This document shows positions 470 through 53,218 of a stretch of DNA of 64,000 nt, in pieces (the first letter of the stretch is position 1; every line of letters begins with the position of its first letter). The stretch comes from a virus. The translations under genes and the position numbers were made by a program. The stretch is taken from the IMG/VR virus record IMGVR_UViG_3300043177_000234, one strand, 5' to 3'. Under the pieces are notes generated by a model. It ran no database searches. It was not told the DNA's origin and saw nothing but the letters and a program-made list of their open reading frames with translations.

Positions 470-617
470 CGCTTACCTCAAAATACCGATTAACTCTGGC
501 ATTGCACCTGTCACAGTGTAACGTGCCGTCCCGGTCATCCGTAATGAATCGCCCAATATACCTGCCATTCTTACATGCCGTACATTGAGCATTGGTTAAG
601 TCTATACTGTCAGACAT
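360..617 (-). CDS. Small zinc-finger-like protein (CxxC...HCxxC)
   Basis: MSDSIDLTNAQCTACKNG...LHCDRC. The 5' part of the listed ORF overlaps tRNA-Ala and the 3' part overlaps the peptidase, so the boundaries are uncertain. Confidence 0.4.
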   Translation of the reverse strand: MSDSIDLTNAQCTACKNGRYIGRFITDDRDGTLHCDRCNARVNRYFEVSDVLSGRNNSGAADVVGATDRVARSIQSTPRSSRKVR

Positions 618-623
618 GATATT

Positions 624-699
624 TGGTGGAGCTGACAGGGATCGAACCTGCGACATCAAGCTTGCAAAGCTTGCGCTCTCCCAGCTGAGCTACAGCCCC
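624..699 (-). tRNA. trnA: tRNA-Ala(UGC)
   Basis: GGGGCTGTAGCTCAGCTGGGAGAGCGCAAGCTTTGCAAGCTTG...GTCAGCTCCACCA; full cloverleaf, G3:U70, encoded CCA. Confidence 0.97.
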
Positions 700-1611: not shown

Positions 1612-1829
1612 AGACAAATACCTTTCCGCCCCTACACCTAGCTCGCCAACCCGCATCGCGACATATTTTTAGCTAGTCGCGCAGCATTCTCCGGATCTTC
1701 GAAACCAAGAAAGCGAAATGTTGTGCGGTCACGGTCGCCGGATGGCCGCAGTAGAACCTTGCACGTATCCGCCTGTCGCTGCAAAAACTCTTTACTCAAT
1801 AGGATCGACATCAAATATCTCGTAAGAAA

Positions 1830-1902
1830 TTAGGTCAAGGGGCGCGGTCAGCATTTTTTTCAAAGTGTTGGTTTGACGATAACTGAACCACATCGGACCT
1901 AA
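1830..1902 (-). ncRNA. Y-RNA-like RNA, free-standing copy 1
   Basis: UUAGGUC[C]GA pairs with UUGACCUAA; upper stem UGUGGU-U-CAG/CUGACCGCG; UUAUC follows the upper stem. Confidence 0.75.
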
Positions 1903-1909
1903 ATCAATT

Positions 1910-7905: not shown

Positions 7906-8292
7906 TCACGCCGCCGCCGAAGGAGCATTCTCCACGGTGAATCCACTCACTTCCGCAACGTCTTCGACCAAAAAGCGTCGACCGAATCCATCCTGCTCCA
8001 CGCGAACGCGGGCGCCCTTAGCAAAAAGCACATCAATCTTGTCATTGATGAGTACCTGGGTGCCATCCTGCATGAATACAACGGTCACGTCTGATACGAC
8101 CTGAGATGCGGAGAGTGTGCCTCCTGCATACGAGGGCATGCTGCTGTGCTTAGTGGTGTACTCAATCTTTTCGAGGACACCACTATGAATAACCGTTCTT
8201 ACTGCGCTAAGCTTAGTGGCAAAGCTCTTCGCAGCAAAGAGGCCGGCCACGGCAAGTCCGAGAAGTGCTGAAATCTTAATGACACTATTCAT
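7906..8292 (-). CDS. Hypothetical protein with N-terminal signal/TM segment
   Basis: ORF track; hydrophobic N-terminus. Confidence 0.6.
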   Translation of the reverse strand: MNSVIKISALLGLAVAGLFAAKSFATKLSAVRTVIHSGVLEKIEYTTKHSSMPSYAGGTLSASQVVSDVTVVFMQDGTQVLINDKIDVLFAKGARVRVEQDGFGRRFLVEDVAEVSGFTVENAPSAAA

Positions 8293-8318
8293 TGCTATCC
8301 TCTTTTCTATACTAGAAA

Positions 8319-8384
8319 TCGGTCAAGTGGGTACTGTGGACTGGTTCATTTTTGAGTAAAGATAATCCACAGAAGTCGGACCGA
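8319..8384 (-). ncRNA. Y-RNA-like RNA, free-standing copy 2
   Basis: UCGGUC[C]GA/UUGACCGA; upper stem CUGUGGA/UCCACAG; UUAUC. Confidence 0.8.
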
Positions 8385-8386
8385 AA

Positions 8387-8437
8387 TGGTGGGGGGTGGA
8401 TTCGAACCACCGACGCGGCCAATCTCCGCCTGCTCCC
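8387..8437 (-). ncRNA. Truncated tRNA-like element (one hairpin, T arm, ACCA) between two Y-like RNAs
   Basis: GGGAGCAG-GCGG-AGATTGG-CCGC-GTC-GGTGG-TTCGAAT-CCACC-CCCC-ACCA. Confidence 0.5.
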
Positions 8438-8446
8438 ATAAATAAA

Positions 8447-8525
8447 TTAGGTCTAGTTGATGGCTAGAGTGCCCTGGTGGGCGGTTCATTTTGGGTAAAC
8501 GATAATCTAACCAATTCGGACCTAA
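8447..8525 (-). ncRNA. Y-RNA-like RNA, free-standing copy 3
   Basis: UUAGGUC[C]GA/UAGACCUAA; upper stem UGGUUAGA/UCUAGCCA; UUAUC; loop shares UUUAC(U/C)CAAAA...UGAACC with copy 2. Confidence 0.75.
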
Positions 8526-8530
8526 AGTAG

Positions 8531-8605
8531 TGGTAGCCCCTGCCGGATTTGAACCGACGACCTTATCCGTGTAAAGGATCTGCTCTACCGCTGAGCTAAG
8601 GGGCT
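8531..8605 (-). tRNA. trnV: tRNA-Val(UAC)
   Basis: AGCCCCT/AGGGGCT-ACCA; loop TTTACAC. Confidence 0.93.
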
Positions 8606-8727: not shown

Positions 8728-8743
8728 ATCTTGAAGAATGATT

Positions 8744-8870
8744 TAGTGGGCCCGGTGGGACTCGAACCCACACCGCTTTTATTCCAAAAAATGATAACGA
8801 TTCTCTGTCGTACCCAAAGGGTCAGGTGGTGAGAACCACTAGTTTTGTGCTACCGTTACAACACGGGCCC
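8744..8870 (-). ncRNA. tRNA frame carrying a permuted Y-like module (possible GGA anticodon hairpin)
   Basis: GGGCCCG/CGGGCCC acceptor, D and T arms; module GUGGUUCUC-ACCAC-CUGACCC-UUU-GGGU[A]CGA-CA-GAGAAUCGU-UAUC; 3' end ACUA. Confidence 0.65.
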
Positions 8871-8898
8871 GTGTATCAATATTAAACCATACTTCTTG

Positions 8899-9582
8899 AT
8901 GTCTAAAGTCAAGCTCCTCAGCCTAATTCTCGGCTGCCTCTTTCTCCTATTTGCTGGATGTAGATCCAACCTAACTCACGAAGAGTTGCTTGCCTCGCGC
9001 ATTGCCGAAGCAAGGCCGGCGATTGTTCATCTACTTGCGGAAGGTAGTAGTTGCTCCGCGTTTCATGTTGGACACGAGCTTTTTATTACCGCAAGTCACT
9101 GTATCCGTCCCGATACGGAGTACATTATCGTAGATTCTGAGGATAATCCGTATGGGGTTCGCCCGATACTTATTGATAGGGACCGGGATGTGACAGTGTT
9201 TGAGAGTAACGGATTTGAGGGCCAGCCCATGCAATTGTGGAATGAGCAGCTATACGGCTCTCCAAAGATAGGCTCTACGATAGTCAGTATGGGATTTCCA
9301 GGATATTATCTGCAAAACTTTGTTTTCGAAGAGGGTACCGTTCTAGACAAGAGAACTGATAATGGGGTGCGCCTTATCGTTAGTCGCGGAGTAAGTTATC
9401 CCGGAGAATCTGGTGGCCCAGTCATTTCATTGCAGAATGGTCAGGTGGTGGGGTTAGTACATGCATTAGCGGAGCGTATTACCCACATAAATGACGATGT
9501 TCAAGTTCACAACACTTTAAGTCTGTTAGTTGCTTGGTCTGAAATAAGGACAGTCTTAGAGCAAGCTCGTAAGGTTAGATAA
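8899..9582 (+). CDS. Trypsin-like (S1) serine protease, probable lipoprotein
   Basis: FITASHC and GESGGP catalytic motifs; lipobox-like FAGC after a hydrophobic stretch. Confidence 0.85.
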   Translation: MSKVKLLSLILGCLFLLFAGCRSNLTHEELLASRIAEARPAIVHLLAEGSSCSAFHVGHELFITASHCIRPDTEYIIVDSEDNPYGVRPILIDRDRDVTVFESNGFEGQPMQLWNEQLYGSPKIGSTIVSMGFPGYYLQNFVFEEGTVLDKRTDNGVRLIVSRGVSYPGESGGPVISLQNGQVVGLVHALAERITHINDDVQVHNTLSLLVAWSEIRTVLEQARKVR

Positions 9583-10540: not shown

Positions 10541-10873
10541 GCGAAGTTTCCCCGCTATGATTGAGTCGATGCGCGGGGTGTGCATCTGCCATCCGATCAA
10601 ATGGCGTTGCTTAAAATGATCGCCCGACGCTAATTTAAGAATAGGCGGTAGCGCAACCATACGCTACTTTGCCTCCGAGTTTATAAGGCTCGGTGTCGGC
10701 AGTTATTTAGTGACCACCTGATGGCTTAATGGATCCATCACCCAAGTGGTGGTGCCTAACGGGCACCAGTCGGTCTTTAGGCGACGGCCTTCCAGTAGCC
10801 TAAGCTTCACAGTATCTGGCAATACTTTTCTGCTGCGCACCGTCCGAGGTTTGAGATCTTAGGTGCCGTGAGA

Positions 10874-10969
10874 TGGTGGGAGGGGTTGGATTTGAACCAA
10901 CTTTAACCAGATAACCTTCTTCTATCGGACAATTCAGTCTAGTAGTTGAAGACGGATTTGTCACTTCCC
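10874..10969 (-). ncRNA. Acceptor/T-arm tRNA-like RNA with a permuted Y-like module and no anticodon arm
   Basis: T arm GTTGG-TTCAAAT-CCAAC, CCCTCCC-ACCA end; module CUUCAACUA-C-UAGAC-UGAAUU-GUC[C]GA-UAGAAGAAG-G-UUAUC. Confidence 0.65.
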
Positions 10970-10972
10970 AAG

Positions 10973-11101
10973 TGGTGGAGGGGGCTGGACTCGAACCAGC
11001 GACACAGGGCATTTCATGCGATAACCGATTTCTGTCGGAACAGGAGTTCAAAAAGTTGAAATCGAATTTGTTCCCTGCTCTACCAACTAAGCTACTCCTC
11101 C
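10973..11101 (-). tRNA. trnF: tRNA-Phe(GAA) with a 53-nt permuted Y-like insert (11020-11072) in the anticodon stem
   Basis: Removing the insert gives a 76-nt tRNA with GGGGC-ATGAAAT-GCCCT arm, GTGTC variable loop and ACCA. Confidence 0.78.
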
Positions 11102-11534: not shown

Positions 11535-11615
11535 ACATGAGGGTGCTTTTTGGTTTTCAGAAGTTTCCCCCTACGCCTCAGGCAGCTGATAGTTTTCTAA
11601 CCGCCACCTCAAAAT

Positions 11616-11748
11616 ACTTCCTAGCAGGACTCGAACCCGCACAGATCATATCGATAATTCATACCATCGGACAGAGTCAATAACCGGTATGGTCGGCTGG
11701 TCACCAGATTTCTCTGGTCGTACTTACCAATTAGTACGATATAGGAAG
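11616..11748 (-). ncRNA. tRNA-like RNA with a permuted Y-like module in place of the variable region
   Basis: CTTCCTA/TAGGAAG acceptor, extended D hairpin TCGTACT/AGTACGA, T arm GCGGG-TTCGAGT-CCTGC; module CAUACC-GGUUA-UUGAC-UCU-GUC[C]GA-U-GGUAUG-AA-UUAUC; no CCA. Confidence 0.65.
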
Positions 11749-11750
11749 GT

Positions 11751-13529: not shown

Positions 13530-14195
13530 CTACAGCATTTGATCATTATCTTTGTGGGAATGTCTGAGAAGAAGACTTACGCCAAAGATTAGGATTGCGA
13601 TTGGAAGCATCCCGTGCAACTTGGCGGTTGCAATAATTACCAGCGCGGCGCTTAATATGACGGATGTGTTAAGAGCCATTTTCGTCGCCCGAGCATGACC
13701 GAATTTCAGTTGCAATGCGGCCCTAAGAATACGACCTCCGTCCATTGGAAATATGGGCAACATATTGAAAATTACTATGGCAATATTTGTCACTCCTAGA
13801 GTAGTCAGTATTGTAACTCCCGAAATGAGCATCCTGCCTGACGCCACGCTGGCAACGGCGGCATCCAGAAGGAGTGCAGCAGCGGCAATTGCCGCACTTA
13901 GCGCCGGACCCGCAAATGCAATTATGACCTCCTGCTTTGGAGTAACTCCAGTTAAATCTAATGATGCAGCTCCGCCAAAGTAGTGCAGTACAATCTTCGT
14001 AGATGGTAATCCGTACTTGCGGGCAGCAAGTACATGCGCATATTCGTGAGCTAGTATCGAAGCAAAGAGCATGATTGCCAATACGACTCCTGCTGCGCCC
14101 AAAGAGAATATCATTCCGCCAACAGCGAGGAGTATGCTCCAATGTAGGAAGACTGGCACACCCAAAGCAGAGCCTAATTTAAGAGACGATCTCAT
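13530..14195 (-). CDS. M50-family (site-2/SpoIVFB-like) membrane metalloprotease
   Basis: HEYAH and NMLPIFPMDGGR motifs; multiple TM segments; own ATG at MRSSLKLG. Confidence 0.88.
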   Translation of the reverse strand: MRSSLKLGSALGVPVFLHWSILLAVGGMIFSLGAAGVVLAIMLFASILAHEYAHVLAARKYGLPSTKIVLHYFGGAASLDLTGVTPKQEVIIAFAGPALSAAIAAAALLLDAAVASVASGRMLISGVTILTTLGVTNIAIVIFNMLPIFPMDGGRILRAALQLKFGHARATKMALNTSVILSAALVIIATAKLHGMLPIAILIFGVSLLLRHSHKDNDQML

Positions 14196-14675
14196 TCCCC
14201 CCCCCCATCGCGCAACCTCGTGAATAAATCTCTTTCTACCCGACATAAAAGTCCACCGTAAAACGGCACCATACCTACTATGACGGGAGTGCTGCACCCA
14301 CCTTTGATCTATCTCGGGTATTGTAGCTAAGGTATCTAAATAGAATCCCCATCTGGCCTCCGGTATTAATGCTCCGAAATACACGTGGTATGAGTTGCCG
14401 CTGCTATAGATGCAGTATGGTGCCCCCGCAGAATTCATATTTGCAATAGAGGAGCAGATGGTCCTAACTCGCTCTAGGCTTGGCCGGCCGATAAAATCTA
14501 TCATTGGCAGATGCACTCTTCTACGCGAATCACTTAACAGCAGACCGGAGGCTATGCCAATCTCGTATCCCGGTCTTATGTTGAAACTGGCGAGCAGCGC
14601 GCCAAACTGAGATTCGTCCACCAACTTTCCTAGATCAATATCGACCAAGCTCTGGGTATTATTTGTAACGTACAC
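14196..14675 (-). CDS. Hypothetical protein, possibly primase (AEP)-like; fused to M50 in the ORF track via a poly-C run
   Basis: HLPMIDF...SSGNSYHVY...DQRWVQHS. Confidence 0.45.
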
Positions 14676-19683: not shown

Positions 19684-20832
19684 TCATATATCTATTCTTT
19701 TTGAGAGAATAGAAATACACAATTCCTCGATCCTTTTCATGTCAGGCTTATGCGGAATTGAGTACTTTTTTGTGTTGTAAATTTCAGTACAAAGAGCGTC
19801 TTCTGTTAGGAAGAACTCCTCCAGCTTGTCATAGCTCCACGCACCGGCACGGATGGCCACTAATTCATCTGAGTCGATACCCACTCTATTTACGTTTACT
19901 TTGCCATCTACAAGGATCTCGCGACACATTCTCATCAGTCTAACTAGATGACTGGCGTGCTTTGTATCGTACCCGTACTTTTCCTCCAGAGCCGCACGCG
20001 CTGGATTTCGCGCTTTTTTCCACTGATGATATCGGGACCAATCATCTTGGGCATGACGAAATCTCCTCTCCTTTTCCAGGAGATGAATAAAGTTCTCATC
20101 ATATCCAATGCTCCGGGCAGCACTCTTCCATTTAGAATCTGTAGTAGACATGATTTCGGCCAGCATCAAATTGATCTTGCCCAAAATAGATATACGGTCA
20201 GCCTCTGAGGTGACAGCACTTAGATCTGTCTCCCACTCATCAGTTTTCTTTTGAATAGATGCCACGGCGGCCTCTAGCTGATTCTTTGGTATTAGACCAA
20301 CAGCAGGAAGATCAAATTCCTCACGTGTAGGCGGCCCTTTTGGTGGATTAAGGAGATAGCTCCTGTGTGTCTTGATGCGCTTAAACTGCGCAGCGGAGTA
20401 CCCTGAGAAGGTATGCTTTGCCTTGGCTGACAGGAAGAGGTTGCCATTATCTCTAAGCTCCCTTCCCTCTTTAGAGCAAACTCTCACATGCGCATCATCA
20501 CAAAACAGAACATCTAGAATGTTAGGATTCGCGTCAGCCGCAAGACTCATGAATTTGCGCAATTCGTATACTGATCCCTCGAGTTTTTCCCTATGAGAGA
20601 TTTCACGTTCCTCATCGGACAGTAGCGGGAGGAAGGCTGCAATATTGTCCGGCGAATCAGCCTGCTCGAATGCATGATTCAAACCCAGATATGTTTCCAT
20701 TGGAGGTATCGCAATACCCTTCACATCCACATCTGAATCTGCGCGATGGATCCCATATGCTCTGGAGCCCGCCAATGTCAGTAAGATAGTGTGCTTAACG
20801 AGGTCAAAGTACATGTCATCATCCCATCTCAA
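19684..20832 (-). CDS. Pol-beta superfamily nucleotidyltransferase, RlaP-like
   Basis: LAGSRAYGIHRADSDVDVKG motif; YDTKHASHLVRLM C-terminal motif. Confidence 0.8.
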   Translation of the reverse strand: MRWDDDMYFDLVKHTILLTLAGSRAYGIHRADSDVDVKGIAIPPMETYLGLNHAFEQADSPDNIAAFLPLLSDEEREISHREKLEGSVYELRKFMSLAADANPNILDVLFCDDAHVRVCSKEGRELRDNGNLFLSAKAKHTFSGYSAAQFKRIKTHRSYLLNPPKGPPTREEFDLPAVGLIPKNQLEAAVASIQKKTDEWETDLSAVTSEADRISILGKINLMLAEIMSTTDSKWKSAARSIGYDENFIHLLEKERRFRHAQDDWSRYHQWKKARNPARAALEEKYGYDTKHASHLVRLMRMCREILVDGKVNVNRVGIDSDELVAIRAGAWSYDKLEEFFLTEDALCTEIYNTKKYSIPHKPDMKRIEELCISILSKRIDI

Positions 20833-21110
20833 GGTTAATCTAATTCATCATCATCAAAAATATCATCTGACCACATATTGTCATCATTCTTGAGAAATAG
20901 GTAGGCTCCTGCTGCCAGGAAAGATATTACAAAAAGAACTGCCCCAATTGCAATTGCGCTCATATAATTCCCCCATTGATTAAGTCAACTTCCATTCCCA
21001 CCAGAACCTTGTACTCACGATCCTGTTTGGAAACCAACTCGGTTATCTTTTCCACAATTTCCCATACATATCTAAGCTCAGCCCGCGCACGAGCAGAGGG
21101 GGGTCCAGTG

Positions 21111-21506
21111 TCATCCCTCCTGCCATGTGCCTAGACCAGAATTCCATCCCCGAATCCTCTCAGGACAGTAGCTGAATTCATGTCTGGCATCGGCTATGTG
21201 AGATGGAAAGTTGCCTACCAGATCGGTCAAGCTAGCGTTAAACCACTCCTCAACACCCTCATCTTCGAGCATTATCCGATAATTTATGTTGGCGTTGCTG
21301 GGGTCTAGGAATGGCCGAGAATATTCCTCATCAATATCGTCATCATCAGCAAATCCTATTCTGATATTATCATAAAATACCGGGGACCAAATTGATTTAA
21401 GAAACTCTCTAATCTCCTCCCTGCGCTGCTTTAACACTTCGACATGGGGGGCTAAACTCAGGATGTGCTCCGCCCTGTGGGCAGCGTCCAAGATTCCACT
21501 ATTCAT
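21111..21506 (-). CDS. Hypothetical protein
   Basis: ORF track; 4-nt overlap with clpB. Confidence 0.55.
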   Translation of the reverse strand: MNSGILDAAHRAEHILSLAPHVEVLKQRREEIREFLKSIWSPVFYDNIRIGFADDDDIDEEYSRPFLDPSNANINYRIMLEDEGVEEWFNASLTDLVGNFPSHIADARHEFSYCPERIRGWNSGLGTWQEG

Positions 21507-24091
21507 CGCACAACTCCATCGACCCTAGTGAATGTCAGCCCTTCATCTGACTTTGAAGAGTTAACATCAACGAGAACACTATCCCCTTTAACGTAACCCC
21601 CTTCAAGAATGGCTAGTGAAAGCGGATCTTGTAGCCATCGCTGGATAGCCCTGCGTAGAGGCCGGGCTCCAAACTGCGGTTCAAACCCAGCATCAACAAT
21701 GGCTTTAAATGCTTCTGGTGTTATCTCTAGGCTTAGTCGGCGAGCTGCAAGCATGCCGCTTACCTTCTTGAGTTGGATGTTGGCTATGTGCTCGATATTC
21801 TCTCTGGTGAGACCGTGAAACATGATCACATCATCGATTCTGCCGAGGAACTCGGGACGGAATGCTTTTCGTAGATCAGCGAACGCAGCCTCCTTAGCAG
21901 ACTCTGGCAATGTGCCGTCTGCTGTAGTTGCTGCCAGTAGGTGCTGAGAGCCTACATTTGATGTCATGATAATTACCGTGTTCTTGAAATCTACGAGGCG
22001 GCTTTGGCTGTCCGTAAGCCGTCCATCATCAAGCACTTGAAGTAGAATATTAAAAATGTCCGGATGGGCTTTCTCGACCTCATCGAAAAGCACTACGGAG
22101 TATGGCTTAAGCCTTACAGCCTCAGTCAACTGTCCTCCTTCATCAGCACCCTTGTATCCGGGAGGGGCGCCGATAAGACGTGCGACTGTGTGTTTCTCTT
22201 GGAACTCACTCATGTCCAGGCGAATCATCGCACGTTCGTCATCGAACAGGAATTGGGTAAGTGCCTTGGCTAACTCCGTCTTGCCTACGCCGGTCGGGCC
22301 TAAGAAGAAGAAGCTGCCTACTGGACGGTTGGGGTCACTCAATCCCGAACGGCTACGGCGAATCGCCTTTGCAATGGCCTTGAGTGCTTCCTTCTGCCCA
22401 ATAACGCGAGCCGAGATATGCTCCTCCATATGCAGAAGTTTCTCTCGCTCCGACTCTAACATAGATGATACCGGAATTCCTGTCATATCCCCGACCACTC
22501 GGGCAATGTCTGCTGGTTCGACCTCCTCTTTGATTAGAGGCGTGCCGGCCTGAAGCTTTTGAAGTTCTTCAGTCGCAGAATCGAGATCTGCTTGGAGGCG
22601 CTGTAGCTGCCCATACTTTAGCTCAGATGCCTTGCTGATATTTCCACCGCGAGTAGCGGCCTCAAGCTTAGCATTCGTCTCTTCAATACCCTCTTTGATT
22701 GCGCGAATGGATTGAATCAATCCCACTTCGGCCTCCCAGCGAGACTTGAGAGCAGTTACAGTCTCCTCAACCGTCGCTATTTGGCGCTCCAGCTTAGCCT
22801 TATACTCTAGCGCATCACGATCCTTTTCTGCATGAATTGCGGAGAGCTCCATCTGCAACTGTGTGAGGTGCCTACTCTCGACATCAAGCGCGTCAGGCAT
22901 CGAATCTATAGCCACTCTGATCCTAGACGCAGCTTCATCTACAAGATCAATTGCCTTGTCCGGCAGTTGCCGCCCAGAGATATACCTCTGGGAAAACTTG
23001 ATTGCTGCGGTCAGCGCCGCATCTTGAATGCGGACGCCGTGATGAACTTCATATTTCGCTCTTACACCGCGCAAAATGCGAAGTGTTTCATCGTGAGACG
23101 GCTCTTCAATGAGGAGTGGCTGGAACCTGCGCTCCAGCGCTTTATCCTTTTCAATTGAGTTTCGGTATTCGTCCGGCGTGGTTGCGCCCAAAACCTGAAT
23201 CTCGCCACGAGCAAGTGGCGGCTTGAGCATTTGACTAGCATCAGATGCCCCCTCACCTCCAGCGCCAACCAGAGTGTGAATCTCGTCGATAAATAGGATT
23301 GTGTTACCTTCTGCTTGATTTACCTCTGAGATTACAGCTTTGATACGCTCTTCAAACTGTCCTCGTAGTGAGGCTCCGGCCAAAAGCGCGCCCATGTCCA
23401 AGGCCATAATCCTACGGTCCTTCAGTGGTACTGGCACATCCCCAACAGCAATTCTTTGCGCAAGGCCATTGATAATGGCATTCTTGCCCACGCCGGGTTT
23501 ACCAATCAAGATGGGGTTATTCTTTGAACGTCGGGATAGAACCTGGATAATTCTGCGGATCTCCTCGTCTCTACCCACAATGGGATCGATCCTGCCTTCC
23601 TTTACACGCTGCACTAGATCGATGGCGTATTTTGCAAGAGCGGAATCTGCTGTCTTCGGCGGCTGAGCCTTTGTTACCTTAACCAGGCCGCCCTCAAGGC
23701 GCTCTTTTGTAATGCCCGAATCGCGCAAAAGTCGGCCGCTTGCACCAGAATTAGTCTGAGCATCTGCCAGAGCGAGTAGAAAGTGTCCTGTGTCCACCTT
23801 TGCGTTTGCTTTTGTCGCAAAAACCTCTGCAGCTGATGTGATCTTTAGAAACCTAGGAGACAGGTAGTTTGATGCCTGAACCTTTGGAATCTTTAGGAGC
23901 TCAATATCGAGCCTGCGCTCAAGCTCTGCGGAGGGAGTATACTTGTCAAATACGGTTCGGATGGCGGGGTTCTGCAAAAGAACCTTGAGCATGTGCTCGG
24001 GCTCAATGGCTTGGTGTTGATTGGCCTTGGCGGCCTTCTGACTATCAACCATAAGAGTTTGTGCTTGCAAAGTGTACTTAGAAAGTTTCAT
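21503..24091 (-). CDS. clpB: ClpB AAA+ disaggregase
   Basis: Two NBDs (GKPGVGKN, GPTGVGKT), RRSKNNP, KYRGQFEER-like pore loop, coiled-coil M domain, FRPEFLGRID. Confidence 0.96.
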   Translation of the reverse strand: MKLSKYTLQAQTLMVDSQKAAKANQHQAIEPEHMLKVLLQNPAIRTVFDKYTPSAELERRLDIELLKIPKVQASNYLSPRFLKITSAAEVFATKANAKVDTGHFLLALADAQTNSGASGRLLRDSGITKERLEGGLVKVTKAQPPKTADSALAKYAIDLVQRVKEGRIDPIVGRDEEIRRIIQVLSRRSKNNPILIGKPGVGKNAIINGLAQRIAVGDVPVPLKDRRIMALDMGALLAGASLRGQFEERIKAVISEVNQAEGNTILFIDEIHTLVGAGGEGASDASQMLKPPLARGEIQVLGATTPDEYRNSIEKDKALERRFQPLLIEEPSHDETLRILRGVRAKYEVHHGVRIQDAALTAAIKFSQRYISGRQLPDKAIDLVDEAASRIRVAIDSMPDALDVESRHLTQLQMELSAIHAEKDRDALEYKAKLERQIATVEETVTALKSRWEAEVGLIQSIRAIKEGIEETNAKLEAATRGGNISKASELKYGQLQRLQADLDSATEELQKLQAGTPLIKEEVEPADIARVVGDMTGIPVSSMLESEREKLLHMEEHISARVIGQKEALKAIAKAIRRSRSGLSDPNRPVGSFFFLGPTGVGKTELAKALTQFLFDDERAMIRLDMSEFQEKHTVARLIGAPPGYKGADEGGQLTEAVRLKPYSVVLFDEVEKAHPDIFNILLQVLDDGRLTDSQSRLVDFKNTVIIMTSNVGSQHLLAATTADGTLPESAKEAAFADLRKAFRPEFLGRIDDVIMFHGLTRENIEHIANIQLKKVSGMLAARRLSLEITPEAFKAIVDAGFEPQFGARPLRRAIQRWLQDPLSLAILEGGYVKGDSVLVDVNSSKSDEGLTFTRVDGVVR

Positions 24092-26934: not shown

Positions 26935-27906
26935 CTAGCGGATAACTCCTCCGCCAATCAACTCATCGTCTCTGTAAACTGCGACAACCTGCCCTGTGCT
27001 TACGATGGTGCCTTCTGCAAGAGCAATATGCCCGCTCCCAATCTCTGAGACTGCGTACTTTTTACCATGATATGCCACCTGCGCTGTCAGCATTCCGGAT
27101 GCTTGGGGCATGTTCCGCCAGAGCACACGAATTTCCCTCGTGACCGGAACCTCCTTGCCAACCAAGATGCGCTTGGTATCCACAGATACAACGGTATCTC
27201 CGCCAAAGCCCTTACGCTGACCAATGGCCGGGCGTCCAGTGTAACGACCAATCTGGATTAGATCGCTGCCGCTTGACCTGACAACTTCACGATCAAAGGA
27301 CGGTAGGAGGTGGTTAAAACACAAGTTCTGTGAATCTGGAGTTGACGCTGTCGATAGTCCAACCTCAGATGCAACTGATCGCACATCGCTCTTATGCATG
27401 TGGCCTAGTGGAGTCAGCCAGAATTTTAGCATCGCTCTGTCAACGAGACTCACCATATATGACTGGTCTTTTTTAGGATCTCGCCCTCGGAAGACGCGCC
27501 CACTATCGTTAATGAAGTAGTGCCCGCTGGCAAAATAATCACATTGGAGAACTTGCCTATAGTAGTTGAATAGCGGAGCGCGCACATCTGCATTGCACGT
27601 TGTGCAGGGGGAAGGTACGCCGCCGGCGGACCATACCTGAATGCTTGGATCAATTACCTTCTTCGTAAAGAGTTGCCGAACATCTGGAGTGTGGAGTGTG
27701 ATGCCCAGCTTATCGCACACACTACGCGCTCGACTGATTGCCGACTCAGCGCAGCATACATAGTCATCACAGTCAGTAGGCTCATTTACTTGCTTGAGAA
27801 GCACGCCCTCCACAAGGAAGCCTTGCTGCTGTAGTAGGTAGGCGGTTACACTGGAATCCACGCCGCCGCTGATACCGACCAAGACTTTGCTCATGCACGA
27901 ATCCAT
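26935..27906 (-). CDS. mnmA: tRNA 2-thiouridylase MnmA
   Basis: SGGVDS PP-loop, PCTTCN, ASGHY, KDQSY, DSQNLCF. Confidence 0.92.
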   Translation of the reverse strand: MDSCMSKVLVGISGGVDSSVTAYLLQQQGFLVEGVLLKQVNEPTDCDDYVCCAESAISRARSVCDKLGITLHTPDVRQLFTKKVIDPSIQVWSAGGVPSPCTTCNADVRAPLFNYYRQVLQCDYFASGHYFINDSGRVFRGRDPKKDQSYMVSLVDRAMLKFWLTPLGHMHKSDVRSVASEVGLSTASTPDSQNLCFNHLLPSFDREVVRSSGSDLIQIGRYTGRPAIGQRKGFGGDTVVSVDTKRILVGKEVPVTREIRVLWRNMPQASGMLTAQVAYHGKKYAVSEIGSGHIALAEGTIVSTGQVVAVYRDDELIGGGVIR

Positions 27907-34222: not shown

Positions 34223-34587
34223 TGGTGGAGGTGATGGGACTCGAACCCATGTCCATAAGATATATTATCGAAAGACTTCTACACACTTAGCTCTCTGCTT
34301 GTACTGCCGGGGATCGAACAGGAGCATTCGATACTCGGAGGTGCTGACTATTACTACCAATCACCCTGTCAGCTAAATGATTGGAGGTATGGAATCTATC
34401 TCTACCAGCAGTCACCATACTTCCTACTGGCATCAGCTACCGCTAGGCGATCAGGCCGCGAGAGCTACTGGTGCAAACTCAACATTGTCGTTGGCGTTTG
34501 TATGTTGCCGCAGTTTTTAAAGAGGGCCGCGACTTCCCCTGTGTGCCGTCATCCAACTCAATCCCATGTCGAAACCAAGACACCCCC
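34223..34587 (-). ncRNA. ssrA: tmRNA, tag ANDNVEFAPVALAA*
   Basis: 5' GGGGGTG...TTCGAC; tag ORF GCCAACGACAAT...GCGGCCTGA; 3' GGGTTCGAGTCCCATCACCTCCACCA; G3:U70. Confidence 0.97.
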
Positions 34588-34633
34588 GTAAAATACACTG
34601 GGCTACCGGCACATTAGACGCCGGGTTATTTTC

Positions 34634-35734
34634 CTATTCGTAATCTCGAATTGCAATTACATATGGAAATCGAGGTATACCATCAGGCGTAAGGTTGAAA
34701 TACTTCACTGTCGCTAGTTTACCAAGCAAGTCTTGCCTTGACTTCAACAGCCCTCTGAGGTATTCTCTGTCGCCTTTGATATTAGAATTAAATTGCTGGC
34801 CGGCTACATTTCGAAGGAGCATCGAGGCGGCCATACCGCTCTTGTTGCCATCACCTTCAATCACATCTAGAATAAGAAATTCTTCATCCTTAAACTCTTT
34901 GCGCTTAAGCAGCGCCTTACTGCGCTTGTTTTCGTAAACCCAATCCAGCCGAACCATCTGGCCTTCGTAGCCGGCTTCCATGTATGAATCATAAGCGGCG
35001 TCTAGCTGTTGGCGATTATGAATTGCCGTAGTTGGTACTATACGTATGCAGCTGGGCCGACCGCTGAGGATTTTTTTAAGGAATGCGTGACGCTCTGAAA
35101 ATGTGGATCTGCCGGCGCCAGAAGCTATATCATATACCCAATACTGGATCGCGGCGGCGCTCTCCTTCAGGTCTTCATTTGAGGGTTTGCTTTTCTTTAC
35201 CAAAGAGCATATGCGATTGAAGTCATTGGCAAACTTATCACAATATAATTCTCCATCCAATGCTAATCCCGGCAATTCATCAAACAGGCTTTCTAGGGCT
35301 GCTGCAATATGCGGGACGCTAGAGAATGGCTTTCCTCCGCGACTTTTGAGGGCGCCCTGCGTAGCGATGCAACGAATCCCGTCGTACTTGGGCTGACTAA
35401 AGACTGGGTATTTGAGGTCGTCAGCGTAGTCTTCAAAGGATTTTGCTAGCATAGGCTCGATGAATTCGATGTCGTCGATTTTGCCCAGATCTTCTTTGTA
35501 GCCGGAGTCGATCTTCTTCTTCCATTTGGACTTAGCCTCAAACGCAGCCTGATCTTCGGGGCTAGTTTCATTCGAACGGCCAACATTCTTGGCCTGACAG
35601 ACTGTCCACTCCGAGACCACCTTTTGACCATCAATCTGGCCAGAGGTGACTCTGTGCCTATCTCCTTGGACTTCAATCTCCCAACTTTGCACTGCACCTG
35701 TAGATGTCCTAGAATATAGAATTGGCAGCTTCAT
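34634..35734 (-). CDS. ATP-dependent DNA ligase
   Basis: QPKYDGIRC, LDGELY, YEGQMVR, LLKRK, PRFP...RDYE. Confidence 0.93.
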   Translation of the reverse strand: MKLPILYSRTSTGAVQSWEIEVQGDRHRVTSGQIDGQKVVSEWTVCQAKNVGRSNETSPEDQAAFEAKSKWKKKIDSGYKEDLGKIDDIEFIEPMLAKSFEDYADDLKYPVFSQPKYDGIRCIATQGALKSRGGKPFSSVPHIAAALESLFDELPGLALDGELYCDKFANDFNRICSLVKKSKPSNEDLKESAAAIQYWVYDIASGAGRSTFSERHAFLKKILSGRPSCIRIVPTTAIHNRQQLDAAYDSYMEAGYEGQMVRLDWVYENKRSKALLKRKEFKDEEFLILDVIEGDGNKSGMAASMLLRNVAGQQFNSNIKGDREYLRGLLKSRQDLLGKLATVKYFNLTPDGIPRFPYVIAIRDYE

Positions 35735-52842: not shown

Positions 52843-53066
52843 AATCTTCCGCTTTGAGTTTGCGGCGGGCCCATCTGCGGAGCGCCGGCCTTCTCTTGTG
52901 GTGATAGCGATTGCAGCAGTCGCAGTGCATTCCGCCAGGACCACGCTTTCCATGCATGATTTTTGCCATCGGATCAGCCTGTGTCCTCCAAAAGAAAACC
53001 AGCGGGGTTGGCTACCCGCATCTCCCGGATACAATCCGGGGCTTTAATTAAGCTATGGTTAAGGGA

Positions 53067-53137
53067 TTGGTCTAAAAGGCGTCGGTGGGGCATTTGTTTT
53101 CAACCATAGAAAGATAACCCGCTAACTGTCGGACCAA
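53067..53137 (-). ncRNA. Y-RNA-like RNA, free-standing copy 4
   Basis: UUGGUC[C]GA/UAGACCAA; upper stem GUUAGCGGG/CCCACCGAC (7 of 9 pairs); UUAUC. Confidence 0.7.
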
Positions 53138-53146
53138 AAGAGAGTC

Positions 53147-53210
53147 GGGTCAAAAGAGCGGCTATGGGGATTGTCTGGTAAATATAGATAACCCATGTGC
53201 CTGCAGACCC
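53147..53210 (-). ncRNA. Y-RNA-like RNA, variant copy 5
   Basis: GGGUC-UGCA/UU-GACCC; upper stem GGC..AUGGG/CCCAU.GCC; UUAUC; in tandem with copy 4. Confidence 0.55.
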
Positions 53211-53218
53211 AGAAAAGG

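What the first reader, a model, noticed from the sequence alone, without database searches (positions are those of the whole stretch)
8319..8525. Free-standing RNAs that closely mimic metazoan-type Y RNAs (copies 2 and 3)
Seen: 66- and 79-nt RNAs whose 5' strand (U/C/A)GGUC[C]GA pairs with a 3' U(U/A)GACC strand around a bulged C, followed by an asymmetric internal loop, a 7-8 bp upper stem and UUAUC opening the loop. The two loops share UUUAC(U/C)CAAAA..UGAACC. Established: vertebrate Y RNAs begin GGCUGGUCCGA, pair with UUGAC around a bulged C (the Ro60 site) and have a conserved UUAUC after the upper stem; nematode sbRNAs also keep UUAUC. Inference: the phage makes multiple Ro60/Rsr ligands, either to sponge or redirect a host Rsr-PNPase complex or to serve its own Rsr. 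Ten modules in one window seems unusually many.
Basis: partly seen in the sequence, partly recalled or inferred. Interest (0 to 1): 0.85.

Follow-up and report, generated by a model that had tools for sequence, protein, structure and literature searches.

The report
Phage Y RNAs for phage Ro60
Two small hairpin RNAs among the tRNA genes of a 368-kb freshwater giant phage belong to a large family of Y RNAs, the docking RNAs of the RNA-surveillance protein Ro60, which this phage also encodes; the family looks strikingly like human and worm Y RNAs.

Summary
On the minus strand, 8319-8384 (66 nt) and 8447-8525 (79 nt) each form a closing helix GGUC[C]GA/U(U/A)GACC with a bulged C, an asymmetric internal loop, a 7-8 bp upper stem and a loop that opens with UUAUC.

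A covariance model seeded from copy 2 alone found copy 3. It also found look-alike RNAs in other phage contigs that encode Ro60. With the rebuilt model: 129 hits, all on the Ro60 strand, 119 within 2 kb upstream of it, and none in 815 kb of control viral DNA. Bacterial Rsr loci gave 78 more. Covariation is strong (94% of cells paired; all 15 pairs change on both sides). UUAUC and the bulged C are almost invariant.

This phage has its own Ro60 (TROVE plus vWA), 33 kb away on the same strand. Related phages carry orthologous Y RNA pairs in front of the same ORF.

The RNAs are very probably Ro60 ligands cut out of a tRNA-array transcript. Expression and binding were not tested. Phage Ro60/Y RNA pairs are already known. 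What seems undescribed is this short class, without a tRNA-like domain and metazoan-like in form, and its separation from the Ro60 gene.

The scan reached the same reading before on a near-identical genome (e1-5339969).

The parts
8319..8384 (-). Y RNA copy 2 (66 nt). Closing helix 8384-8376 with 8326-8319, bulged C at 8378, upper stem 8372-8366 with 8340-8334, UUAUC at 8365-8361, 25-nt loop.
   Evidence: 70.2 bits with R2, though it was in the training set. Independent models: RF01656 32.6 bits and RF00019 20.6 bits.
8447..8525 (-). Y RNA copy 3 (79 nt). Closing helix 8525-8516 with 8455-8447, bulged C at 8518, upper stem 8513-8506 with 8468-8461, UUAUC at 8505-8501, and a small GC hairpin inside the loop at 8482-8471.
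   Evidence: R1, built from copy 2 only, scores it 35.4 bits, E 1.8e-7. RF01656 scores 22 bits. Orthologues with the same inner hairpin occur in L200, L202 and L197.
8387..8438 (-). tRNA-like mini element between the two Y RNAs. It has a canonical T arm (GGUGG-UUCGAAU-CCACC), a short acceptor-like stem, an encoded ACCA 3' end and one extra hairpin, but no D arm. It is probably a processing signal (RNase P and 3' trimming).
   Evidence: The same kind of element, with a 7-bp acceptor stem and ACCA, sits between the Y RNAs of related phages (L202:142-213, L197:1886-1958). ARAGORN does not call it.
8531..8605 (-). tRNA-Val(UAC), immediately 5' of copy 3 on the same transcript strand. Its 3' processing would define the 5' end of copy 3.
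8878..8905 (-). Sigma-70-like promoter match upstream of the RNA cluster (8870->8316). It is a candidate start for the polycistronic transcript.
   Evidence: This is a consensus match only. No terminator-like site follows copy 2 on the minus strand.
7906..8292 (-). 128-aa ORF with no Pfam family and a hydrophobic N terminus, starting 27 nt after copy 2. Its homologues in related phages are also preceded by Y RNAs, so it serves as a synteny anchor.
1828..1905 (-). Third free-standing Y RNA of the same family.
   Evidence: R2 48.7 bits; R1 20 bits. Orthologue at L197:5766-5833.
53064..53216 (-). Tandem pair of further Y RNAs: 53064-53141, and 53142-53216 with the variant helix GGGUC[U]GC.
   Evidence: R2 32.4 bits (E 3e-6) and 26.6 bits (E 1e-4). 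Neither was in the training set.

Best explanation
Copies 2 and 3 are Y RNAs, small non-coding RNAs whose closing helix docks on the phage's own Ro60 protein. That helix is GGUC[C]GA/UUGACC with a bulged C and a conserved G-U pair. They are transcribed on the minus strand as part of a tRNA-array transcript in the order tRNA-Val, Y3, mini-tRNA, Y2, ORF. The enzymes that trim tRNAs release them: RNase P cuts at the 5' side of the tRNA-like elements, and 3' trimming follows the encoded CCA ends. The upper stem with UUAUC and the divergent loops form the second module. By analogy with other Y RNAs, that module gates the Ro60 ring or tethers it to an effector such as an exoribonuclease or a repair enzyme. 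The likely role is RNA surveillance or repair for a phage that carries many tRNAs, a tmRNA and RNA-repair genes. What is shown here: the structure, the covariation, the family link to Ro60 genes, and the presence of Ro60 in this genome. What is inferred: transcription, processing, Ro60 binding, and the identity of the effector.
For: Independent model. R1, built from copy 2 alone, finds copy 3 (E 1.8e-7). It also finds RNAs lying just upstream of Ro60 genes in unrelated phage contigs, all on the Ro60 strand.

Family link to Ro60. The rebuilt model R2 gives 129 hits at E<=0.01 in 51 of 72 phage loci that encode Ro60. All are on the Ro60 strand; 122 are upstream, with a median gap of 516 nt, and 119 are within 2 kb. 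R2 gives 0 hits in 815 kb of control viral DNA. It gives 78 hits, all on the Ro60 strand, in 80 bacterial Rsr loci that were never used for training.

Covariation. 94.2% of cells are paired against 66.6% in shuffles. All 15 pairs change on both sides. The score is 0.80, against 0.26 for shuffles and at most 0.14 for slid controls. The clade-only alignment gives 0.65 against 0.21.

Conserved unpaired positions. The bulged C is present in 108 of 111 sequences, G12 in 109 of 111, and UUAUC is T111 T111 A109 T101 C108. The bacterial set shows the same.

Strand specificity. G-U pairs are frequent (pair 12:202 is G-U in 86 of 111 sequences), which fits an RNA rather than a DNA element.

Ro60 in this genome. 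The phage encodes a 535-aa Ro60: TROVE 153 bits, vWA_Ro60 214 bits. It aligns over its full length with human RO60 (454 bits), Xenopus Ro60 (440) and D. radiodurans Rsr (380). The gene lies 33.3 kb from copy 2 on the same strand.

Orthologues. Related phages from independent metagenomes carry one or two Y RNAs in front of the homologue of ORF 7906-8292, with compensatory changes in the upper stems.

Known precedent. Y RNAs bind Ro60 through this bulged helix (PMC4726728, PMC4201824). Phage Ro60/Y RNA pairs exist and bind in vitro (PMC12135203).
Against: There is no expression, end-mapping or binding evidence for these RNAs. The Ro60 gene is 33 kb away, whereas the criterion in the literature for candidate Y RNAs is within 4 kb on the same strand (PMC4201824). 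All Rfam Y-type models score below their gathering thresholds. In copy 3 the pair after the bulge is G-A, not G-U. The alignments used for covariation were fitted to the model. Copies 2 and 3 were in the training set of R2, so their R2 scores are not independent.
Confidence: 0.78

Rival explanations
1. The RNAs act mainly as decoys or adaptors for a host Rsr/Ro60-PNPase complex. They would sponge it or redirect it, rather than serve the phage's own Ro60.
For: Thermus phage phiLo Ro60 and its Yrl RNAs assemble with host PNPase in vitro (PMC12135203). Having several copies with different loops would suit titration or retargeting. The Y RNAs are not linked to the phage Ro60 gene.
Against: The phage carries a complete Ro60. 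The same RNA family is tightly linked to Ro60 genes in 51 phage loci and 44 bacterial loci, so the cognate partner is the simplest reading. The host is unknown, and so is whether it has an Rsr.
Confidence: 0.1
2. They are structural spacers or processing and stability hairpins of the tRNA operon, for example nuclease entry or exit sites or a 5'-UTR element of ORF 7906-8292, with no link to Ro60.
For: They sit between tRNA-like elements and directly upstream of an ORF. No dedicated promoter or terminator was found for them.
Against: In most phages and bacteria the same family lies next to Ro60, without this ORF. The invariant bulged C, G12 and UUAUC are not explained by a spacer role. In L202 a tRNA-Cys separates the Y RNA from the ORF, so it is not a fixed leader.
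Confidence: 0.06
3. The motif works at the DNA level, as an operator, a recombination site or a miniature mobile element spread through the genome.
For: There are several dispersed copies with conserved ends. Permuted versions lie inside tRNA-like genes, which hints at mobility of the module.
Against: 129 of 129 phage hits and 78 of 78 bacterial hits are on one strand relative to Ro60. Pairing tolerates G-U, which would be C-A on the other strand. The stems covary while their sequences differ completely.
Confidence: 0.02

Closest known systems
Vertebrate Y RNAs (Rfam RF00019)
   Same: The 5' and 3' ends pair into a helix with GGUCCGA on the 5' strand, a bulged C, and ACUUGAC on the 3' strand. 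An internal loop follows, then an upper stem ending in UGG(G/A)-UUAU. This phage clade has exactly GGUC/GACC, whereas other phages and bacteria have GGGC/GCCC.
   Different: The score is 20.6 bits against a gathering score of 38. There is no Pol III context or La-type oligo-U terminator logic. The RNAs are shorter (66-79 nt). The loops are unrelated. They are encoded in a phage tRNA array.
Nematode stem-bulge RNAs (Rfam RF01656, ceN72-3/ceN74-2)
   Same: This is the best-scoring Rfam model: 32.6 and 22 bits. UCGGUCCG, UGG-UUAUC, CCA and ACUUGACCG all align. UUAUC is conserved in sbRNAs and vertebrate Y RNAs (PMC4726728).
   Different: Both scores are below the gathering score of 38. In the literature the UUAUC motif of sbRNAs is tied to DNA replication initiation, not to Ro60. 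No such role is implied here.
Bacterial and phage YrlA (Rfam RF02553; Chen et al. 2014, PMC4201824)
   Same: Ro60-associated RNAs of bacteria and phages, encoded on the Ro60 strand. The YrlA 5' motif GNCGAA corresponds to G9-C10-C11-G12-A13-A of this family. Longer members of the family (113-151 nt) carry a tRNA-like insert and hit YrlA weakly (39.8 and 35.4 bits).
   Different: Copies 2 and 3 have no tRNA-like domain and give no YrlA hit. Both strands of the Ro helix are conserved, whereas for YrlA only the 5' strand is said to be recognisable (PMC4201824; bioRxiv 10.1101/312249). Here the tRNA-like element is a separate neighbour, not a domain inside the RNA.
Deinococcus radiodurans Yrn1
   Same: It is described as the more metazoan-like bacterial Y RNA, keeping both strands of the Ro-binding helix (PMC4201824). 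It tethers Rsr to PNPase.
   Different: I did not compare the sequences directly. Yrn1 is larger, with several stem-loops including a T-arm-like one.
Thermus phage phiLo Yrl1/Yrl2 with phiRo60 (PMC12135203)
   Same: Phage-encoded Ro60 with phage-encoded Y-like RNAs. Binding was shown in vitro.
   Different: The phiLo RNAs lie directly upstream of Ro60 and were defined by a CGAA motif in a bulge. phiLo Ro60 is only distantly related to this phage's Ro60 (23 bits).

Membership tests
Y RNA as a functional class (Ro60-bound small RNA) | Binds Ro60/Rsr in vivo or in vitro | not testable with these tools
Y RNA as a functional class (Ro60-bound small RNA) | The 5' and 3' ends pair into a stem carrying the conserved Ro-binding helix with a bulged C | tested here: met
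   The bulged C is present in 108 of 111 phage and 65 of 65 bacterial family members.
Y RNA as a functional class (Ro60-bound small RNA) | The genome encodes a Ro60/TROVE protein | tested here: met
   A 535-aa TROVE plus vWA_Ro60 protein at L120:16499-18106, aligning over its full length with human, Xenopus and D. radiodurans Ro60.
Y RNA as a functional class (Ro60-bound small RNA) | Encoded within about 4 kb of Ro60 on the same strand (search criterion of Chen et al. 2014) | tested here: not met
   The strand is the same, but the distance is 33.3 kb. Family members in 51 other phage loci do meet the criterion.
Rfam RF00019 Y_RNA | Score at or above the gathering threshold of 38 bits | tested here: not met
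   Copy 2 scores 20.6 bits. Copy 3 gives no hit.
Rfam RF01656 nematode sbRNA | Score at or above the gathering threshold of 38 bits | tested here: not met
   32.6 bits for copy 2 and 22 bits for copy 3.
Rfam RF02553 YrlA | A tRNA-like (D, T and acceptor) domain within the RNA, and a score at or above 69 bits | tested here: not met
   No YrlA hit on either copy, and the loops of 25 and 37 nt hold no tRNA-like domain.
Ro60-linked short Y RNA family defined here (model R2) | Closing helix with bulged C, a G-U pair, an upper stem, UUAUC at the loop start, and covariation in both stems | tested here: met
   Caveat: copies 2 and 3 were part of R2's training alignment. The independent support is R1 and the Rfam models.

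The most novel reading that the evidence does not exclude
The short Ro60-linked RNAs found here in phages and bacteria may be true homologues of animal Y RNAs and sbRNAs. They would share not only the Ro-binding bulged helix but also the apical UGGG-UUAUC/CCCA element. If so, the whole Ro60-Y RNA particle moved between bacteria, their phages and animals as a unit. The UUAUC motif, so far discussed for DNA replication in animals, would then have an older function linked to Ro60. In this phage clade the RNAs have moved into tRNA arrays. There they also exist as permuted modules inside tRNA-like genes, which would be a possible intermediate between simple Y RNAs and tRNA-mimicking YrlA.
Probability: 0.35. 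Interest if true: 0.8.

Novelty: new variant of a known kind. Interest (0 to 1): 0.6.

Why it matters
Ro60 and Y RNAs are studied mainly because of lupus and Sjogren autoimmunity, and what Y RNAs do is still only partly understood. [quoted passage not shown] The family met here is widespread next to Ro60 genes in phages and bacteria. It keeps both strands of the helix, the bulged C and an almost invariant UUAUC, and it lacks the tRNA-like domain. That offers a simple microbial model for the animal-type Y RNA, and a direct way to test what UUAUC does in a Ro60 particle. For phage biology, it adds a Ro60 particle with several RNAs to the tRNA, tmRNA and RNA-repair toolkit of giant phages.

Tried and rejected
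Expression: no RNA holder was listed for this DNA in public runs, so no reads were laid.

Close relatives in IMG/VR: searches with the two flanking proteins found none. An exact-match scan for copy 2 found none.

Loose DNA patterns: a Y-like pattern over viral contigs gave mostly chance matches in coding DNA, and none of those passed R2. A stricter pattern gave nothing.

Loop-motif scan of metagenome contigs: it returned one chance match without a Y module.

TROVE in the window: none was found among ORFs of 250 aa or more. Ro60 was reached only by walking the contig.

YrlA next to this phage's Ro60: there is none, only tRNAs.

More Y RNAs elsewhere in the genome: there are none in the 142 kb beyond Ro60, and none between the window and Ro60.

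Descriptor search for the permuted modules: my regular expression was not specific, finding 6 where 4.5 are expected from shuffles. Those modules therefore rest on reading by eye.

Is the phage Ro60 specially animal-like? No. Bacterial TROVE proteins score slightly higher (490-540 bits) than human RO60 (454 bits).

Loop UGAACC pairing with the tRNA T-arm sequence GGUUCA: it is complementary, but the loop motif is conserved only in a subclass, so I leave this as speculation.

Full report
**What is there.** The window is part of a 367,953-bp metagenomic contig of an uncultured freshwater giant phage. The contig is JGI 3300037501 Ga0394875_0000017, and a 95-kb Logan contig covers the same region. 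A fragment with an identical Ro60 gene is classed as viral in IMG/VR (L121; CheckV completeness 38% for 142 kb). The first 14 kb of the window hold a dense array of tRNA genes, all on the minus strand, and there is a tmRNA at 34223-34587.

Read on the minus strand, the finding's stretch has this order: tRNA-Val (8605-8531), Y RNA copy 3 (8525-8447), a tRNA-like mini element (8438-8387), Y RNA copy 2 (8384-8319), and then a ribosome-binding site and a 128-aa ORF (8292-7906).

There is a closing helix with GGUC[C]GA on the 5' strand and U(U/A)GACC on the 3' strand, around a bulged C. An asymmetric internal loop follows, then a 7-8 bp upper stem, and UUAUC as the first loop residues. RNAfold recovers the stems, with z-scores of -3.3 and -5.2. 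The four elements fold independently within the 301-nt context.

**Is it more than chance?** Yes, on three lines of evidence.

- Independent Rfam models place sub-threshold matches exactly on the two RNAs and nowhere else in the first 15 kb, apart from tRNA-type hits. The nematode stem-bulge RNA model RF01656 scores 32.6 and 22 bits and the vertebrate Y_RNA model RF00019 scores 20.6 bits, against gathering scores of 38. The printed alignments show that UCGGUCCG, UGG-UUAUC, CCA and ACUUGACCG are shared with those consensus sequences.
- I built a covariance model from copy 2 alone with a hand-written structure (R1). It scored copy 3 at 35.4 bits (E 1.8e-7) and the RNA at 1828-1905 at 20 bits.
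- The same model, run on other phage contigs that encode a Ro60 relative, found matches just upstream of the Ro60 gene, all on its strand.

**The partner protein.** No ORF of 250 aa or more in the window has a TROVE domain. I walked the contig leftwards with three exact-protein look-ups and reached a 535-aa protein with TROVE (153 bits) and Ro60-type vWA (214 bits) domains. It lies 33.3 kb from copy 2 and on the same strand as the Y RNAs.

It aligns end to end with human RO60 (454 bits), Xenopus Ro60 (440 bits) and D. radiodurans Rsr (380 bits), and the DxSxS metal site is visible in the alignment. It is a mainstream Ro60. Many bacterial TROVE proteins, from Myxococcota and other phyla, are 46-50% identical and score 490-540 bits. 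It is therefore not specially animal-like.

**The family.** There are 72 IMG/VR contigs that encode a relative of this Ro60 at 36-46% identity. I rebuilt the model from 23 first-round matches (R2) and obtained the following.

- In those phage loci: 129 matches at E<=0.01 in 51 loci, every one on the Ro60 strand. Of these, 122 are upstream, with a median gap of 516 nt; 119 are within 2 kb; and there are up to five per locus.
- In 815 kb of unrelated viral DNA, which had even been pre-selected for containing GGTCCGA..TTATC..TWGACC: no match.
- In 80 bacterial Rsr loci that took no part in training: 78 matches, again all on the Ro60 strand. At E<=0.001 that is 65 matches in 44 loci.

Covariation is strong. 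On 111 distinct phage sequences, 94.2% of cells pair, against 66.6% after shuffling. All 15 pairs change on both sides. The covariation score is 0.80, against 0.26 for shuffles and at most 0.14 when the partners are slid by one to three columns. The alignment was fitted to the model, which favours the structure. The size of the effect, the slid controls and the untrained bacterial set (95.3% paired) argue against an artefact.

The unpaired signature is almost invariant. The bulged C is present in 108 of 111 sequences, and the G after it in 109 of 111. UUAUC reads T111, T111, A109, T101, C108. The bacterial set shows the same.

G-U pairs are common; the pair after the bulge is G-U in 86 of 111 sequences. 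Every hit lies on one strand. The element therefore works as RNA, not as DNA.

Family members fall into two length classes. The short class is 62-98 nt. The long class is 113-151 nt, and its loop holds a tRNA-like insert that hits Rfam YrlA weakly (39.8 and 35.4 bits against a gathering score of 69). Copies 2 and 3 belong to the short class.

**What is special in this phage clade.**

1. The helix is GGUC/GACC, exactly as in vertebrates. 107 of 111 phage relatives and 65 of 65 bacterial relatives have G at that position, paired with C or U. This is a compensated U-A change.
2. The Y RNAs are separated from Ro60. The three closest Ro60 relatives I could fetch (80, 64 and 55% identity) have no Y RNA within 10 kb of Ro60. 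In them, as here, Ro60 follows a conserved block of HSP20, a DHH/DHHA1 protein and an 89-aa ORF.
3. The Y RNAs sit in the tRNA region instead. Homologues of ORF 7906-8292 in independent metagenomes are each preceded by one or two Y RNAs of the GGUC type, among tRNA genes. The upper stems carry compensatory changes, and the inner GC hairpin of copy 3 is conserved.
4. The tRNA-like element between the two Y RNAs is also conserved. It has a 7-bp acceptor stem and an encoded ACCA in L202 and L197.

Within the window, R2 with filters off finds exactly five members: 8316-8388, 8445-8528, 1828-1905, 53064-53141 and 53142-53216. The next best score is 12.6 bits. There are no members in the 142 kb on the far side of Ro60, nor between the window and Ro60.

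**How it most likely works.**

- Shown here: the structure, the covariation, the linkage of the family to Ro60 genes, and the presence of Ro60 in this genome.
- Established elsewhere: Ro60 binds the bulged helix of Y RNAs, mainly its 5' strand, and Y RNAs gate the Ro60 ring or tether it to effectors such as PNPase (PMC4726728, PMC4201824, bioRxiv 10.1101/312249). A phage Ro60 binds phage Y-like RNAs and host PNPase in vitro (PMC12135203).
- Inferred for this locus: transcription from a promoter-like site at 8905-8878 through the RNA cluster into the ORF; release of the Y RNAs by RNase P at the tRNA-like elements and by 3' trimming next to the encoded CCA ends; binding to phage Ro60; and use of the different loops to reach different partners or targets.

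The window and its flanks are rich in RNA-repair and tRNA functions. These include RlaP at 19684-20832 and MnmA at 26935-27906, the tmRNA, and a DHH/DHHA1 protein beside Ro60. That fits a role in RNA surveillance or repair during infection, as already proposed for jumbo-phage TROVE proteins (PMC7824862). I put the Y RNA reading at about 0.78. The main gap is that there is no expression or binding evidence.

**Comparison with what is known, and novelty.** Phage-encoded Ro60 and Y RNAs are known: 22 phages in Chen et al. 2014, and phiLo in 2025. The general interpretation is therefore not new.

The papers I could read state three things. [quoted passage not shown] At least one Y RNA per species has a tRNA-like domain. 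And bacterial Y RNAs are highly divergent from the vertebrate clades (PMC4201824, bioRxiv 10.1101/312249, PMC4726728).

The family met here differs from that description. It is short, has no tRNA-like domain, and keeps both strands of the helix, the bulged C and UUAUC. Rfam 15 does not capture it at gathering thresholds. No paper in the searchable library links UUAUC to bacterial or phage Y RNAs. I could not read the 2020 review of bacterial Ro60, so prior description cannot be excluded.

I therefore file it as a new variant of a known kind. An earlier agent of this scan reached the same core reading on a near-identical genome (e1-5339969). I located Ro60 and tested the family link independently.

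Noticed in passing
window 8387-8438 (-); L202:142-213; L197:1886-1958: A tRNA-like mini element with a T arm, an acceptor stem and an encoded ACCA, but no D arm, sits between the two Y RNAs and is conserved in related phages. It may be a processing signal for RNase P, or a tRNA-like partner encoded beside the Y RNA rather than inside it.
   Followed up: partly
window 8741-8870, 10872-10971, 10973-11101, 11614-11750 (all -): tRNA-like genes carry a circularly permuted Y module. The order is: 3' strand of the helix, a small closing loop, G(U/G)(U/C)C[C]GA, an upper-stem strand, then UUAUC. One example is UUGAAC-UCCU-GUUC[C]GA, which has a compensated pair. I read these by eye; MFE folds were ambiguous, and my descriptor search was not specific. 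They may be the counterpart of YrlA with a different connectivity.
   Followed up: partly
L120:14657-16409, and L194, L195, L196 upstream of Ro60: In this phage clade Ro60 is preceded by a conserved block of HSP20, a DHH/DHHA1 phosphoesterase (NrnA/RecJ-type fold) and an 89-aa ORF. The DHH protein is a candidate nuclease partner of the Ro60 particle.
   Followed up: partly
window 594-648 (-): A weak Y-like match (R1, 12.7 bits, E 0.57) has as its 5' strand the T arm of tRNA-Ala (GGUUCGA..UUAACC, with a CUGUCAG/CUGACAG stem). It is probably chance, but it shows how similar the T-arm sequence GGUUCGA is to the Ro-site sequence GGUCCGA.
   Followed up: no
alignment A4 (phage Y RNAs next to Ro60): The loops after UUAUC fall into recurring subclasses: UAAGAU (9 seen, 0.7 expected) and AAUGAU(GAAC) (7 seen, 0.7 expected). 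The loops of copies 2 and 3 (..AAUGAACC) resemble the second subclass. UGAACC is complementary to the tRNA T-arm sequence GGUUCA.
   Followed up: partly
window 13530-14675 (-): One 381-aa ORF combines an AEP-like primase domain (residues 38-151) with a Peptidase_M50 domain, which is an unusual pairing.
   Followed up: no
window 19684-24091 (-) and 34223-35734 (-): RlaP nucleotidyltransferase, a ClpB-like AAA+ protein, a tmRNA (tag ANDNVEFAPVALAA) and an ATP-dependent DNA ligase. Relatives also encode Thg1, IF3 and an eIF-1A-like protein.
   Followed up: no
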